Shown: one piece after another, positions 27,001-57,000 of the stretch | Layout: each line of letters begins with the position of its first letter | Numbering within the stretch: position 1 is the first letter of the stretch | Assembly: GCF_006345805.1 (NCBI RefSeq) | Contig: NC_042998.1 | Coordinates: 178,994,001-179,058,000 of the forward strand | Direction of reading: 5' to 3' | Source: Octopus sinensis | Taxonomy: Eukaryota | Length of the DNA: 64,000 bases | Program-made: the position numbers

Positions 27001-30000
27001 AACGTAACCTTGGACAAAATACTACAAAGCGTTCTGCCTGGTGTATTAACGATTCTGCCAGCTTGCTGCCTTCTGTTCATTAAATATTCATTTCACTTGG
27101 CTTAGAAATAACGAAGCAATTTGTTTCGCGGAACAGAAGTTGTTGGATACTTGAATCCCATTAATACATTACTGGTACGCATTTTTTTTTTATTAAACCT
27201 TAAACCATAAAACAAAGTCGAATACGTAAACTCAGAACACGTAGAAAGATCAAAGTACGTTTTGGCAAAAGCGATTGAGTGCATCTTTTACATTTTAAAT
27301 GATTCGTTCAGTTGTTTCTGTTAACCTAATATAAACTCTTAGCTCAAATTGCAATTTGCTCAATATATATTCCAATTATTTATGAAAAACTCTGTATCTT
27401 CTACTCATGAATGATACACACCATTGCCATTTTTAATCACACTAATCTCTCACATTCTTCAAAGAACCCAGAATGCATCGCAAAATGTTGGTTTCCTCAA
27501 TAGATTTTTTACACAGCACAAATGCATCGTACACTCGGACTAACAAGATTATTTGGTAGAGTTTGAATGAAAGCTTGTTCCTGTACCACGCGCGTGTGCA
27601 CATACACGCACACACGTTCATCTGTCTCATAAATCTAAGCTTTTTTGAAAATAAATTTTTTCGAATTTTAAAAATTTATATTTAACTCTACAACTATTTT
27701 AGAAAACAGTAAAAACAGACTCTGTTCTAGTGTCTGTTTAATGGCAATGTCTGACACACACAGCAGACTAGGGAACCACACCTGAGTGAATTCTAATCAA
27801 ATTAATTACAATAAATTACATGTCACGAGTAAAAAAGAAGCTCGTTGCTTCGGGCATACATTTTCATTGGTGTGAGATGAAAGGTTTAGTGGTTACAATA
27901 GTTGTGGTTTTAATCTGAACATAAACCCAAACGATTTACTAGTATATAAAAAGAGTAAGGCCTTGTTTCACTTGGTGATCCTGGAAATGAAACAACTGAA
28001 GTCGGCAGAAAATGTTGTTTACCGGAAACTCGGCAGGGAGAGCGAAAGAAACCCTGCATAACAAATTGGTACTTCTAAAATCTGGTGTCTTAAAAAATGC
28101 CTTTGATATATATATATATATATATATATATATATATCTATATCTTGAACAATTATACCAGTTATCGATTGCTTCTTTATCGACAAGCTACTTCACAAGA
28201 TATTGTTTGTAGACAGCTGCTGCCCACTAATATATAAGCTTTATGAGGCAAAGCAATGCGATATGCAACCCAGTGAAGACAGAATCTCGTCCTATACTTT
28301 GATCTTGGTTGCATACTCAACAGTTCCAAGTTTTTCCGTCCGTACATGTGTGTTGTGATTGAAGCATTGGTTCATTACTGCCTACTCTGAATTATGAATT
28401 AATGCCAACAGCACAAAGAAGTTAATTGTACTTTCAGTGTTCATTGTATTAATTCAAAACATCACCTACCACATAATTCCATTCAGTCAATTCAAATTTT
28501 TAATTTCAAATAAAAATATCCTCTCAGTTTTCACTGCTTGATTCGGTCGAGTACAATCGTATATTATTTTACTTTGATTTTATTATGCCGGTCTTGACTG
28601 ACTTCAGTAGTTTGACTTGCTGGATCAAGAAGCAAAACATCGCCGAAAGAAAAACAGCTCAAGCGAGAATAAAACAAATTATAAAAATAAAGCAGAAAAA
28701 AAGAAATATTTTTCTTACGTTCGTTGTCATGCGACCATGGGAAAAAGCAACTAATTGCCATAGCGAAGGATGGCAACTCGCTCTTTTCCATTTCTTACAA
28801 ACCAAAGGTAAAGTGAATATTAAAGTTTTCTGATCTAGAAAACTAAATATCTCGGTTAACAAGTTCTCGTCCAATGAATCTGCGTCTGAAAATGTTCGAT
28901 ATCATTTTATTAATGTTAATACCAGTGTTTCACATGGGGATGATGGTGGCTATGAGGATTGAAAATGGGGTGGAAAAAATAACATACAACTAAAATTAAG
29001 ATCGTCTCCAACTTTTTAAAACTTGTCCAACATCATGGGGGAATATACAAGAGTTATATAGACGCAAAATCTACATTGTCTTCTCATTAATAAAGAGATT
29101 GAAACGGAGTGTTTTTTCTTTGGATGTGGTGGGGGACAGTTTGACGTTTGCCAATCTTAGACACGCTACGTCAAATAATCTTTTGATTTGGCACACGTCC
29201 ATATTCGTACGAAAAGAGTATAAAGTCTGTTTATTATTAATCCCCGTTGTCTTACTAGTCACTATTTCACCAACTCTAAAAGTGATGAATGGTCAAGTCT
29301 AGGAATAGTCTATAGACTCGGCCATCTTCAGTGAATACTGCAATATGGCCGCTCATAACCCTTTCTATTATAGGCACAAAGCCTGCAATTTTGTGGGAAG
29401 CAGGAATGCTAGCCAATTATGTCTTGCCAGTGCTCAAATGATACTTATTTCATCGACTTCAAAAGAATGAAAGGCAAAGTCAATCTCAGCAGAATTTGAA
29501 CCCAGAAAGAAGCCGGAAGTTGGCCGCCCATAATAGCAATAGTTTTTTATTGATGGATTAGAAGTCAGTAGAACGACTGTCAGTACGCTTTGCAGTATAT
29601 AGTTCCGTCCCTTTACATTCTGAGTTCAAATTCCGGCGGAGTTGATCTCGCTTTTAATCCTTTCTAGTACTGGGAATGATTTTATCGACTATCTCACCCC
29701 CAACAAATTTATTGCATTGTACTATAACTAAAAATCACGATGTATTACTCAATTGGAAAATCACAGCAAGAATAAAGTTGAGTGTTAAATGAATTAGTCT
29801 CCTCATTAGCTCTGCCGAAGGGCATCATTCTTAACATAAATCATTATTACTTAGAGCTACCTCTAAATAAAATTCACGCTTCTACTTCTCCAAATAAAGC
29901 ATTGTATTTTAGTTATTGTATAAGACGGCGAACCGGCAAAATGCTTCGAGGCATTTCATCCGTCTTCACATTCTGGGTTCAAATTGCACCGAGGTCGACT

Positions 30001-54000: not shown

Positions 54001-57000
54001 TGAAGCATATTCTGTTGTGTCTGGGGAGAGTCATTTTCTTTTTGTGCCTTGTAATGTAACACACTCACCGGTAAAATTTCCACATTTCTTATTTTTATTT
54101 TCCAAAAATTTTCCTAAAATTTTCGTTGCATCATGTAACATTTTCAATGCGTACAAAAGGGAACGCAGTGTAAATAACGGACAGAGTCAAGACTATTGAA
54201 AAGGATGCAAGACGCAACGAAAATTTTAGGAAAATAAAAATAAGAAGTAAGTGGAAATTTTATCGGTGAGTGTGTTACATTATAAGGCACAAAAAGAAAA
54301 TGACTCTCCTCAGACATAACAGAATTCATAAGTATATTTTTCCAAAAATACATGTTAATCATGGCATATCTCCGTAATATATGTAGAATTCTTTATTAAA
54401 TTTCCTTACAGAAGATAAATTAACTTATGCAACTTGAATAGCTTTATTATATAAGCCTTTATTTTAGTTATTGTTTTCAGTTGTTAAATTCAAAATAAGA
54501 AGCCAAATACATAAGCCAAGTAAAAAGAATGCTAAGATAACCGGAAAATAATATCTTTTTTTCCTTTTTCGCTGGAAGAGATTTGGTTCTCTGCTAAAAA
54601 TGCCATTGTGATTTTACTAGAAGTGAAATAAATTTCCTTTTAGTTAATTCATTAGTTTTCTTTTAAAAAGAATCCTTTATTTTCTACAAATTGTCTGATA
54701 TCTTATTTGACATTTCGTGCTCAGGGAATTTCATGACGTCAATAAGAAAATAAATTACTCTTTTTATTTTCTCTCTCCAGAAACAATGTTGATGTTCATT
54801 AAAATGTGTATAGATACGCAGTAATATCAATGGTGTTTTGATAAGTTCCAGGTAAGAAATACTGACTTCGATAATCAAGAAATCTAAGAAGCAATATATT
54901 ATAAAGTCTATGAAGCAGATTCCAATGAGAATAGCTTAAAACAAATTCACCTAGCAACTTAATTCTTCTTCGCTAAAAATATTAAGGCCAGAAGTGGATC
55001 CATGTACCTGCCTGTTCATTTGGCTAATCGTTTCTTCACTTCATTATCGAGGACGACCGCAGTGTGCTTAATTTTATATAATATTTCTGTTCACTTTAAC
55101 ACATTTGCAAATTTATTTAAGGGGGTAGTAGAATATAATAGTCATCATCTAGACTCTATAGGAACATAAAGTGAATAAAATACTTTACTGAGGAGAAAAT
55201 GCAAACTGCCACAAAACTGGAGTGTTTGTCAAAATAATCCAAAAGAAGTAAAGAAATTGTGATTCAGGAGATATTACATCATCTTTTCTACTCACCTGAT
55301 CCGATCCTTTCAGATAACTACTTGTTTACATTCAGCTAATATTCCTTTAAAGGAAGGAAATGTTATTGTTAAGACATTCTGGGATTATCAAAATCAATTG
55401 AATGATTTATTTTTATTCAAGAGGCTTTCGACTTGTGGTATAGGCATTGCAAATGAAAAAGCCCAAATTATTGTTAAAATGATGATTTATTTTCATCAGA
55501 GAACTTATGATAATTCTATTTCCTAAATAAGGTCCTACTTCTCTTTAGAAGAAAAAAAAATGACATTATTTTCCGGTGATCCCTGATCAAAAACAATACA
55601 AAAATATTGAATTATTACTTACATACGTTTTTATCTCCAGTTGTTTCTTTGGGGACATTTTTAGTCCTTGTTATTCGAGGTGAAGGGACTGGTTTTTTAT
55701 AACCAAACCTATTTTGTGTAGAAGGTGTCACTTCACTCTTATTAGGAGTTCCCTCAAATCTTTGATCAGATCGGTTCGAGTTTGCTGAACAAATAAATTT
55801 GATCAAAAAACATGTTTATGAAGTGATGAAAAAACACCTTTTCTGAAATATAATGAAAAATTTAAATGTTCTACAATCCCAAATATATCGTTGGGTTACC
55901 ATCGAAGACTAATTTAGCTTTGTGAATAGCATCCACATCCTGGTTATTGATTTACAACGGTGATCGTTATTTCTGCAGTCTCAATCTCGCAGATCCCATT
56001 GTAAACATTTCGCTTAATCATTCCTTCCTCCAATTGGTTCCTTCAGTACCCACATTTTCCTCACAGGCATTGCCTATAAATAAATGTTCAAGTTCACTAG
56101 TCTAGCAATACGTCGTTTTTGGACTAAATATATAAATATTTAGTAAGAGTGACTGTGTGGTAAGTAGATTTCTTACCAACCACATGGTTCCGGGTTCAGT
56201 CCCACTGCGTGGCACCTAGGGCAAGTGTCTTCTAATATAGCCTCGGGCCGACCAAAGCCTTGCGAGTGGATTTGGTACACGGAAACTGAAACAAGCCCGT
56301 CGTATATATGTATGTGTGTGTCTGTGTTTGTGCCCCCCCCCACAACATCGCTTGACAACCGATGCTGGTGTGTTTACGCCCCCGTATCTTAGCGGTTCGG
56401 CAAAAGAGACCGATAGAATAAGTACTAGGCTTATAAAGAATAAGTCCTGGGGTCGATTTGCTCCACTAAAGGCGGTGCTCCAGCATGGCCACAGTCAAAT
56501 GACTGAAACAAGTAAAAGAGTAAAAGAGTATATGTAAAAAAATAAAATTAAAAAAAAGAATGAGCTTGCTGTTAAAAGCGTCGAGTTTAATTAGCTATAC
56601 TGCATTTAATTACTCTCTATAATAATGACACTGTTTTGCTGACTGTGGGTAGCAATACCCAGATCTGAGAAACATGAAGCATTGTACTCCTATGTCAGTT
56701 ATACTTTACGTACGAATGAAGCGATTCTTTAATGTGAATTGATTTCAAGAGATGAATTTAAAAGTTCAAATTAAAATTTGTTCTACAATAACATCAGAGA
56801 AACTTTGTAAAACTATTTTCAAAATAATGATCATGGTGATGGTGGCTGCGATCAATTGAGGAATATACTATAGGAAAACCGATCCACATTTGCAACAATG
56901 GTTAAAAGCCACTCTTTGCTATGTTTCACTGCCATCATGTTATCGCTGCTATGACTAGAGTCCCATCATCGGGAATCGGGGATAAATTGCTGGTATCTAC

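What the first reader, a model, noticed from the sequence alone, without database searches (positions are those of the whole stretch)
28719..55784. FBXO41-like F-box/LRR module possibly carrying a ~2000-aa repeat-rich N-terminus from one 5.9-kb exon
Seen: the giant exon ends in phase 1 (T|gtgagt) and the F-box exon begins in phase 1 (cag|AC). A direct splice across ~19 kb gives an open frame (..KTKTTS-Y-ADSLDENLL..), and I found no convincing intervening coding exon or alternative start. Known: vertebrate FBXO41 is a neuron-enriched, centrosome/cilium-associated SCF adaptor with a much shorter coiled-coil N-terminus. Inference: a ~2350-aa lineage-specific architecture in which a large disordered scaffold is fused to a ubiquitin-ligase substrate receptor. 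The giant exon is symmetric, so it could be skipped to give long and short isoforms.
Basis: partly seen in the sequence, partly recalled or inferred. Interest (0 to 1): 0.72.

Follow-up and report, generated by a model that had tools for sequence, protein, structure and literature searches.

The report
Octopus FBXO41-like gene, giant exon
This is part of one large octopus gene that joins a roughly 2000-residue disordered, repeat-rich region to an FBXO41-type F-box/leucine-rich-repeat ubiquitin-ligase adaptor; public gene models already predict this layout, and in this window the giant exon is broken by a single missing base.

Summary
The giant exon (53733-47804, minus strand) ends T|gtgagt, and the F-box exon (28885-28719) starts cag|AC. 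The predicted junction peptide KTKTTS-Y-ADSLDENLL occurs letter for letter in two public Octopus models: O. sinensis, 1890 aa, and O. bimaculoides LOC106871624 isoform X3, 2360 aa.

The exon is not one open frame here. It is 5930 nt long. One C is missing at about 52750 relative to the O. vulgaris and O. bimaculoides proteins, so the exon splits into ORFs of 365 and 1660 codons. The O. sinensis model starts at the first ATG after the break and otherwise matches the window 1559/1559.

The C-terminal module is a confident F-box plus LRR solenoid (pLDDT 92.5). Of its 14 relatives longer than 1000 aa, 11 carry Pfam's FBXO41-specific zinc finger, so "FBXO41-like" holds for the module. I found no zinc finger, and no similarity to the relatives' N-terminal regions, in the window or in four cephalopod proteins.

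The N-terminal region is disordered and holds 11 tandem 66-aa units seen only in the Octopus proteins. The gene runs off both ends of the window. Exon skipping remains untested. This is a predicted, uncharacterised variant of a known family, of modest interest.

The parts
55623..55784 (-). Upstream coding exon, 162 nt, entered and left in phase 1. It encodes ...NSNRSDQRFEGTPNKSEV...GDKNV.
   Evidence: Sequence and splice sites. tblastn: P0004 residues 114-169 at 93% and P0005 116-170 at 98%. No Pfam family.
47804..53733 (-). Giant exon, 5930 nt. Acceptor ttacag|CG, donor T|gtgagt.
   Evidence: Two ORFs in different frames. Three Octopus homologues found. No Pfam family in either frame. No Atlas look-alike.
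52749..52751 (-). Site of the one-base frameshift. The window reads ATTATTCTCTTAATTCT, while O. vulgaris and O. bimaculoides proteins read EKIIPLNS, so one C is missing.
   Evidence: Both tblastn pieces meet at query residue 499 (P0005) or 497 (P0004), at 52748 and 52751.
52659..52661 (-). ATG of MINRK, the start of the O. sinensis RefSeq model P0003. It is the first ATG in frame B downstream of the shift and overlaps the frame-A stop (gcATGAtt).
50268..52418 (-). Tandem array of 11 units of 60-67 aa (about 198 nt). Consensus: E.R.PFKNFR.K.RSVFTKDSDNEDSS.E.D.T.D...TGNVSDHSDEET.TDQ.E.SD.NSP.
   Evidence: TRF finds period 198 over 50547-52445. Motif positions. Alignment A2 has mean column identity 67%. 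The AF2 model of one unit has pLDDT 59.9 and no secondary structure.
50922..51101 (-). A 180-nt (60-aa) stretch of the array that is present in the window but absent from P0003.
   Evidence: Global alignment gives 520/520 and 1039/1039 identical residues on either side. None of the 15 equivalent placements has GT-AG borders.
48669..48971 (-). Conserved island in the disordered region (...WYNKFRALFSLKK...SYHPKMLDTD...SPNWSDIIDD...). It is the only N-terminal stretch shared with the distant cephalopod-like protein P0155.
   Evidence: tblastn of P0155 residues 1171-1274: 33% identity, E 1.4e-9. blastp against P0004 residues 1641-1741: 37%, E 1.4e-13.
28886..47803 (-). Intron of 18,918 nt between the giant exon and the F-box exon. 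It holds microsatellite blocks and a reverse-transcriptase fragment. No homologue-supported exon was found.
   Evidence: The candidate acceptors at 39602 and 35544 would both give T|GA, an immediate stop.
28719..28885 (-). F-box exon, 167 nt, with phase 1 at its 5' end and phase 0 at its 3' end.
   Evidence: Pfam F-box-like 3.6e-9 and F-box 2.2e-8. Matches P0003 residues 1561-1615 exactly.
25796..25850 (-). Module exon 2 (55 nt).
   Evidence: Exact match to P0003 residues 1616-1633, AG/GT borders.
23960..24020 (-). Module exon 3 (61 nt).
   Evidence: tblastn of P0003 residues 1630-1654. Borders were read; the script did not cover this exon's acceptor.
21284..21382 (-). Module exon 4 (99 nt).
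   Evidence: Exact match to P0003 residues 1655-1686.
16873..17022 (-). Module exon 5 (150 nt).
   Evidence: Exact match to P0003 residues 1688-1736.
7883..8004 (-). Module exon 6 (122 nt).
   Evidence: Exact match to P0003 residues 1738-1777.
3981..4142 (-). Module exon 7 (162 nt).
   Evidence: Exact match to P0003 residues 1779-1831.
1222..1337 (-). Module exon 8 (116 nt), the last one inside the window. It ends ...IKLK|gtaagt. The final 20 codons lie outside the window.
   Evidence: Exact match to P0003 residues 1833-1870. Residues 1871-1890 were not found.
40604..41197 (-). Reverse-transcriptase fragment of a retroelement inside the big intron. It is not part of the gene.
   Evidence: Pfam RVT_1 at E 9.8e-6 and 25.8 bits, under the 29.6 cut-off. 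It was the only one of 9 intron ORFs with any hit.

Best explanation
The region is the middle of a single, very large (over 64 kb) Octopus gene on the minus strand. At protein level the window cannot be told apart from O. sinensis.

The gene encodes an SCF-type ubiquitin-ligase substrate receptor. A three-helix F-box should dock on SKP1. It is followed by a solenoid of about nine to ten leucine-rich repeats that should hold the substrate. This module belongs to the FBXO41 family.

In place of the zinc finger and coiled coil of canonical FBXO41, the module is preceded by roughly 1600-2000 residues. These are acidic, rich in Ser/Asp/Asn/Lys, and predicted to be disordered. Almost all of them are encoded by one 5.9-kb exon. 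That exon includes 11 tandem 66-aa units, each with a basic F-K-N-F-R-x-K-V-R-S-V-F patch followed by acidic Ser/Thr clusters.

The giant exon splices directly across an 18.9-kb intron filled with repeats and transposon debris to the F-box exon.

Shown: the exon borders and phases, the identity with public models, the fold of the module, the family link, and the disorder and repeats.

Inferred: SKP1/CUL1 binding, and that the disordered region serves as a multivalent, probably phosphorylation-regulated, localisation or scaffold arm.

The one-base frameshift at about 52750 is most simply an indel in the assembly or in the sequenced haplotype. Both flanking frames are otherwise intact, and two sister species read straight through.
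For: Splice sites and phases:
-.

Public models and transcript-like evidence:
- The giant-exon search found 3 proteins at E <= 0.001 among 7999 scored candidates, all Octopus. Two of them carry Pfam F-box annotations.
- P0003 and P0004 read KTKTTS-Y-ADSLDENLL.
- P0003 is identical to the window's frame B at 1559 of 1559 aligned residues, apart from one 60-aa gap. It is also identical in the seven module exons that the script matched.
- P0155 has 1853 aa on one 5917-nt contig and stands for 14 member sequences. It is 60% identical in the module and has a long N-terminal region in the same protein. Here the module is split over at least 9 exons spread over 28 kb, so such a contig is best read as spliced RNA. 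This last point is inference.

Fold of the module:
- The AF2 model has pLDDT 92.5 and pTM 0.88, with alternating strands and helices.
- Foldseek gives 171 matches at E <= 0.001. The best are FBXL2 (1.8e-13), FBXL17 (1.4e-12, TM 0.62) and SKP2.
- PDB phmmer finds FBXL17 at E 1.1e-4 over residues 1562-1849.

Family link:
- The exhaustive search gave 515 proteins at E <= 0.001 and 51 at E <= 1e-30. In the listed hits whose match covers most of the query, the module lies at the C-terminal end.
- 11 of the 14 family hits over 1000 aa carry PF23165, zf-C2H2_FBX41, above its cut-off at their N-terminus.
- The F-box Trp, whose mouse counterpart W577 is needed for SKP1/CUL1 binding (PMC6546786, passages), is invariant: W33 in alignment A1.

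Disordered region:
- 78% of residues are polar or charged, and the net charge is -97.
- No Pfam family and no Atlas hit.
- The repeat-unit model has pLDDT 59.9 and no secondary structure.
Against: - No RNA data from this species were available, so the 47804-to-28885 junction rests on predicted models and on one unnamed contig from a relative.
- As written, the window's giant exon is frame-shifted. Read literally from the upstream exons, translation stops at 52658.
- P0003 starts just after the break, which suggests its source assembly has the same missing base. P0003 also lacks 180 nt of the array without intron borders. If that means a different assembly, the frameshift may have been seen twice and could be real.
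- The O. vulgaris model P0005 (1152 aa) ends inside the repeat array and has no F-box.
- The hallmark FBXO41 zinc finger was not found, and neither was any similarity to the relatives' N-terminal regions. Function therefore cannot simply be carried over from vertebrate FBXO41.
- Hits of 1000 aa or less were not examined.
Confidence: 0.8

Rival explanations
1. The frameshift is real in this species. The gene then makes either a protein that starts at the internal ATG (MINRK, 52661), as in the RefSeq model, leaving the upstream ~530 codons as a separate short ORF or an untranslated leader. Or the gene is a young pseudogene.
For: P0003 begins exactly at the first frame-B ATG after the break, so the annotated assembly probably has the same base missing. 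P0003 also differs from the window by a 180-nt repeat unit with no GT-AG borders in any of 15 equivalent placements. If that means a second assembly or haplotype, the missing base was seen twice.
Against: Frame A upstream of the break is still open for 1076 nt and 99% identical to O. vulgaris (329 aa). Frame B is open for 4974 nt. No other defect is seen in any exon. O. vulgaris and O. bimaculoides read through the site. A CC-to-C miscount is an ordinary assembly error; that last point rests on general knowledge, not on a call.
Confidence: 0.25
2. There are two transcription units, a 'giant-exon' gene and a separate F-box/LRR gene. On this reading the long public models are chimeric predictions.
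For: The O. vulgaris model P0005 has no F-box. An 18.9-kb intron leaves room for a terminator and a promoter. Acceptor-like sites at 39602 and 35544 would end the frame at once.
Against: The phases match exactly, and the same junction peptide is present in two species' models. P0155 carries both parts on one 5.9-kb contig. The F-box exon starts at an acceptor with no in-frame ATG context of its own. Family relatives always carry long regions upstream of the module. P0005 stops inside the repeat array, with its last five residues departing from the window's reading, which looks like a model cut short.
Confidence: 0.07
3. The giant exon is a cassette. Skipping it (55623 to 28885, T+AC = Y, in frame) gives a short F-box/LRR isoform beside the long one.
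For: With the missing base restored, the exon would be 5931 nt and phase 1 to phase 1. The upstream exon also ends in phase 1 with T. The public names carry isoform labels X1 and X3.
Against: No model or contig seen here lacks the exon. Phase symmetry alone is weak evidence.
Confidence: 0.15

Closest known systems
Public Octopus gene models: O. sinensis 'probable WRKY transcription factor protein 1 isoform X1' (P0003, 1890 aa) and O. bimaculoides 'uncharacterized protein LOC106871624 isoform X3' (P0004, 2360 aa)
   Same: They are the same gene. P0003 is identical to the window in 1559/1559 residues of the giant exon's frame B and in the module exons.
   Different: P0003 starts after the frameshift and lacks one 60-aa repeat unit. 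P0004 includes the upstream exons and reads through the break. The 'WRKY' name finds no support here: Pfam reports only F-box families for P0003.
Vertebrate FBXO41, a neuronal SCF subunit that targets to centrioles
   Same: F-box followed by a C-terminal domain. The octopus module's relatives carry Pfam's FBXO41-specific zinc finger. The F-box Trp needed for SKP1/CUL1 binding in mouse (W577A; PMC6546786, passages read) is conserved.
   Different: FBXO41 has an N-terminal zinc finger and a coiled coil that is required for centrosome targeting (PMC6546786). Neither the zinc finger nor any similarity to the relatives' N-terminal regions was found in the window or in four cephalopod proteins. Here a disordered region of about 2000 aa takes their place. 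No named vertebrate FBXO41 sequence was compared directly.
Long invertebrate-type FBXO41-family proteins from the representative library (e.g. P0019 at 2320 aa, P0022 at 2275 aa, P0029 at 2242 aa; unnamed, taxa unknown)
   Same: The module sits at the C-terminal end, is 34-40% identical, and is preceded by very long Ser-rich regions.
   Different: They keep the N-terminal zinc finger, Leu/Glu/Lys-rich stretches, and shared middle motifs (IDENGIMWE, ESTDFD..SDLEKF). The octopus proteins lack these motifs. No similarity was detected between their N-terminal regions and the octopus ones (0 hits).
FBXL proteins with solved structures (FBXL2, FBXL17, SKP2)
   Same: The same fold: an F-box helical bundle followed by a curved LRR solenoid.
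   Different: Only 14-21% identical in the structural alignments. The match is to the fold class and does not show orthology.

Membership tests
FBXO41 family | F-box domain able to bind SKP1 | tested here: met
   Pfam F-box-like 36.7 bits (cut-off 24.3) and F-box 34.1 bits (cut-off 20.5) on the exon 28885-28719. The conserved Trp is invariant in A1. Binding itself was not tested.
FBXO41 family | C-terminal domain of about 280 aa, homologous to that of proteins carrying the FBXO41 zinc finger | tested here: met
   phmmer E-values of 7e-71 to 8e-50 over nearly the whole 331-aa module against the 12 relatives over 1000 aa that align full-length; P0060 and P0075 match only its first half, at 1e-29 and 2e-19. 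11 of the 14 have PF23165 above its cut-off. Hits of 1000 aa or less were not examined.
FBXO41 family | N-terminal C2H2 zinc finger (Pfam PF23165, zf-C2H2_FBX41) | tested here: not met
   No match in P0003, P0004, P0005 or P0155, even at E <= 10. A profile built from 12 relatives' fingers against 2712 six-frame pieces of the window gave a best E of 1.3. Caveat: the gene's 5' end lies outside the window, and the public models may lack 5' exons.
FBXO41 family | Coiled coil related to ZNF365, needed for centrosome targeting | tested here: inconclusive
   blastp of the 14 relatives' N-terminal regions against the octopus N-terminal regions gave 0 hits at E <= 1e-3. The octopus region has only 3.7% Leu. 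No coiled-coil predictor was run.
FBXO41 family | Neuron-enriched expression and centriole localisation | not testable with these tools
   No expression or imaging data were available.
FBXL-type F-box/LRR proteins (fold class) | F-box followed directly by a leucine-rich-repeat solenoid | tested here: met
   AF2 pLDDT 92.5 and pTM 0.88, with ten strands alternating with helices. The best Foldseek matches are FBXL2, FBXL17 and SKP2. Pfam LRR models score only below their cut-offs.
WRKY transcription factors (the name given to P0003 by its source) | WRKY DNA-binding domain | tested here: not met
   Pfam reports only F-box families and one sub-threshold LRR match for P0003.

The most novel reading that the evidence does not exclude
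Cephalopods replaced the zinc finger and coiled coil, the centrosome-targeting half of an FBXO41-type ligase adaptor, with a new, fast-evolving acidic disordered arm encoded by one giant exon. In Octopus a 66-aa unit (a basic FKNFRNKVRSVF patch plus acidic Ser/Thr clusters) was then amplified to about 11 copies and still varies in copy number. The arm would act as a multivalent, phosphorylation-tuned scaffold that retargets the SCF ligase, possibly in neurons.
Probability: 0.2. Interest if true: 0.5.

Novelty: new variant of a known kind. Interest (0 to 1): 0.3.

Why it matters
- It corrects a misleading public name. 'WRKY transcription factor' should read FBXO41-family F-box/LRR protein.
- It flags a one-base break that shortens the O. 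sinensis model by several hundred residues.
- It shows that the FBXO41 family tolerates wholesale replacement of its targeting half. If the cephalopod arm really lacks the zinc finger and coiled coil, it offers a natural experiment on how an SCF receptor is retargeted in a lineage with a large nervous system.
- Beyond that, this is an ordinary, already predicted gene, and nothing here points to a new mechanism.

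Tried and rejected
**Leads that gave nothing**
- Amphipathic-helix idea for the repeat's basic patch: the AF2 model of one unit, with the 11 units as its alignment, gave pLDDT 59.9, pTM 0.11 and no secondary structure. Dropped.
- GT-AG intron as the explanation for the 180 nt missing from P0003: 0 of 15 equivalent placements have canonical borders. Rejected.
- Upstream exons or a zinc-finger exon at 55.8-64 kb: tblastn of P0004/P0005 residues 1-120 gave a best E of 0.48. 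The zinc-finger profile gave a best E of 1.3.
- Hidden coding exons in the 18.9-kb intron: of 9 ORFs of at least 100 aa sent to Pfam, only a sub-threshold RT fragment matched. I left out the ORFs made of microsatellite (YIYIYI...) from the 25 listed.
- ESM Atlas with the giant exon: no usable hit. With the module, only generic FBXL/COI1 clusters appeared, with no FBXO41 cluster among those shown.
- Word-index searches for module relatives: 'shorter' found 1 of 5892 candidates (P0006, unnamed, not used further). 'Near' found 3 of 1898.
- Rfam on the whole window: 0 matches.
- Pfam on three further ORFs (10295-10774 +, 10821-11345 -, 53666-54199 +): 0 families.
- Self-blastp for repeats returned only the diagonal. 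I replaced it with an offset-identity scan.

**Literature**
- 'LOC106871624': 0 papers.
- 'FBXO41' with 'octopus': 2 papers hold both terms, 1 was listed, and it is unrelated.
- A six-term search set to match any two terms was swamped by cephalopod papers; none of the 15 listed mentions FBXO41.
- 'WRKY transcription factor protein' with 'octopus': 0 papers.

- No eukaryotic genome or read collection was on hand.

Full report
**What is in the sequence**

On the minus strand, the ORF listing gives two long open frames: 47796..52778 (1660 codons) and 52658..53755 (365 codons). They lie in different frames and overlap by 121 nt.

- An upstream exon at 55784-55623 has the acceptor ttgttcag| and the donor T|gtaagt.
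- The giant exon starts at ttacag|CGGCACC (53733) and ends at TCA T|gtgagt (47804).
- The F-box exon runs from ttttcag|ACGCAG (28885) to ACGAAC|gtaaga (28719).

The giant exon is 5930 nt long. That is not a multiple of three, so in this window it is neither one open frame nor symmetric.

**The frameshift**

Two homologues read straight through the point where the frames change: EKIIPLNSR(E/K)VA in O. vulgaris P0005 and O. bimaculoides P0004. The window gives EKIILLILV in one frame and SLNSREVASS in the other. The tblastn pieces abut at 52748 and 52751. One C of a CC is therefore missing at about 52750.

The O. sinensis model P0003 starts at MINRK (ATG at 52661), the first ATG of the downstream frame. 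From there it matches the window at 520/520 and 1039/1039 residues, on either side of a single 60-aa gap. At protein level the window is thus indistinguishable from O. sinensis, and the annotated assembly probably carries the same missing base.

The 60-aa gap corresponds to window 51101-50922. It has no GT-AG borders in any of its 15 equivalent placements. It is therefore a difference of one repeat unit between the window and whatever P0003 was derived from, and not an ordinary intron.

I cannot decide whether the missing C is an assembly error or a real allele. Both frames are otherwise intact, and the upstream part is 99% identical to O. vulgaris. That favours an error or a very recent change.

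**The fused architecture**

Searching the giant exon alone found 3 proteins at E <= 0.001 among 7999 scored candidates. All three are Octopus, and two already carry a Pfam F-box. These two are P0003, named 'probable WRKY transcription factor protein 1 isoform X1' (1890 aa), and P0004, named 'uncharacterized protein LOC106871624 isoform X3' (2360 aa). Both contain the junction peptide.

Mapped back with tblastn, they cover the upstream exon, the giant exon, the F-box exon and seven further exons, with nothing in the 18.9-kb intron. I fixed the borders exon by exon. Seven of the eight module exons match P0003 exactly between AG and GT. The borders of the eighth, 24020-23960, were read by eye.

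The last 20 residues of P0003 and the first ~113 of P0004/P0005 are not in the window.

A further search with the module of P0003 found P0155. It is an unnamed 1853-aa protein on a single 5917-nt contig, 60% identical in the module. Its long N-terminal region shares with Octopus only a 100-aa island, at window 48669-48971. In the window the module is split over at least nine exons, so I read that contig as spliced RNA. On that inference it is transcript-like support, from a relative, for a long arm and module in one message.

Exons were searched singly, and the public protein P0003 stood in for the whole module.

**The intron**

The 25 ORFs of at least 100 aa between 28.9 and 47.7 kb are mostly microsatellite read-through (YIYIYI...). 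I sent 9 non-microsatellite ORFs to Pfam. One matched a reverse transcriptase below its cut-off, and the other eight matched nothing. They are possible alternative ends, but nothing supports their use.

**What the module is**

An AF2 model of the 331-aa module, using a 17-row alignment, is confident: pLDDT 92.5 and pTM 0.88. It shows a helical F-box followed by ten strands alternating with helices. Foldseek against the PDB gives 171 matches at E <= 0.001, led by FBXL2, FBXL17 and SKP2. Sequence search of the PDB gives FBXL17 at E 1.1e-4. The fold is therefore an FBXL-type F-box/LRR receptor.

For the family, an exhaustive phmmer search of 1.84 billion representatives gave 515 hits at E <= 0.001 and 51 at E <= 1e-30. 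In the listed hits whose match covers most of the query, the module lies at the C-terminal end, in proteins of up to 2320 aa. The library carries no names, and some hits of about 800-900 aa may be vertebrate or human FBXO41. One example is P0018, 878 aa, with its module at 557-873. I therefore examined only the 14 family hits longer than 1000 aa, and left out the 7 weaker long hits and all shorter ones.

Of those 14, 11 carry Pfam PF23165 ('F-box only protein 41 C2H2 zinc finger') above its cut-off at the N-terminus. One more scores 23.5 bits against a cut-off of 24, one scores 16.7, and one has none. 'FBXO41-like' is therefore right for the module.

According to the passages I read of PMC6546786, mouse Fbxo41 has a zinc finger, a coiled coil needed for centrosome targeting, and an F-box whose W577 is needed for SKP1/CUL1 binding. 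The matching Trp is invariant in my alignment. Of PMC8971942 I saw only the abstract in the search listing.

**What the octopus protein lacks**

- No PF23165 match appears in P0003, P0004, P0005 or P0155, even at E <= 10.
- A profile of 12 relatives' fingers finds nothing in 2712 six-frame pieces of the window (best E 1.3).
- The 14 relatives' N-terminal regions give 0 hits against the window or against the octopus N-terminal regions.
- Motifs the relatives share in their middle regions (IDENGIMWE, ESTDFD..SDLEKF) are absent from the octopus rows.

Either the cephalopod gene has lost the targeting half of FBXO41, or 5' exons are missing from every model seen. The upstream genome was not available to check.

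**The disordered arm**

- Frame B of the giant exon is 78% polar or charged, has a net charge of -97, and has only 3.7% Leu.
- It has no Pfam family and no Atlas look-alike.
- TRF finds a 198-nt period over 50547-52445.
- I delimited 11 units of 60-67 aa with mean column identity 67%. Each unit pairs a basic patch (PFKNFR.K.RSVFTK) with acidic Ser/Thr clusters (DSDNEDSS, SDHSDEET). That these clusters look like casein-kinase-2 sites is recalled knowledge and was not tested.
- The AF2 model of one unit shows no secondary structure (pLDDT 59.9).
- The 66-aa periodicity is strong in the three Octopus proteins (0.43-0.56 self-identity in 300-aa windows) and absent from P0155 (0.15). In what I could examine, the array is restricted to Octopus.

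**How it probably works**

Shown: one gene, an F-box/LRR module of the FBXO41 family, and a giant disordered and partly repetitive arm.

Inferred from what is established for F-box proteins: the F-box docks on SKP1-CUL1, the LRR arc selects substrates, and the arm supplies localisation or multivalent contacts in place of the coiled coil.

**Known or new**

The architecture is already predicted in public annotation, but it is unnamed or misnamed. I found nothing in print (see Tried and rejected for the four searches). Supplementary tables of octopus transcriptome papers were not searched and might list the gene.

Great length is not unique, since zinc-finger-bearing relatives reach 2320 aa. I rate this a new variant of a known kind, of modest interest. 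Its main practical value is the corrected family assignment and the flagged frameshift.

Noticed in passing
window 50922-51101 (-): One 180-nt repeat unit is present in the window but absent from the otherwise identical O. sinensis protein P0003. No canonical intron borders fit, which suggests copy-number variation or a collapse of the array between assemblies or haplotypes.
   Followed up: yes
window 52658-52662 (-): The stop of the upstream frame and the ATG used by the O. sinensis model overlap (gcATGAtt). This is probably a coincidence created by the frameshift.
   Followed up: partly
P0005 (O. vulgaris model), residues 1147-1152, matching window ~51050-51070: The O. vulgaris model ends inside the repeat array, and its last five residues (MNIPT) depart from the window's reading. 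That model lacks the F-box module and looks cut short, perhaps by another indel in its own assembly.
   Followed up: partly
window 31060-32966 and 37962-38519, both strands: Long TA/CA-type microsatellite blocks give spurious ORFs of 100-190 codons (YIYIYI..., HTHTHT...) on both strands.
   Followed up: partly
window 40139-41197 (-): A reverse-transcriptase fragment (YADD motif; Pfam RVT_1 at 25.8 bits, under its cut-off), with a second ORF just downstream. It is retroelement debris in the big intron.
   Followed up: partly
window 37319-37965 (+): Three short ORFs in shifted frames whose translations look to me like a decayed mariner-type transposase. That resemblance is recalled only; Pfam gave no hit.
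   Followed up: partly
window 1-600: A purine-rich, low-complexity stretch, open in several frames on both strands (GC skew 0.25). It lies downstream of the last module exon inside the window. The gene's final coding exon was not found there.
   Followed up: partly
window 10295-10774 (+), 10821-11345 (-): Two ORFs of 159 and 174 codons inside the 16873-to-8004 intron, with no Pfam family.
   Followed up: partly
P0008 and P0023 (unnamed relatives): Two of the 14 long family members have a degenerate FBXO41 zinc finger (P0008, 16.7 bits) or none (P0023). Loss of the finger may therefore have happened more than once in the family.
   Followed up: no
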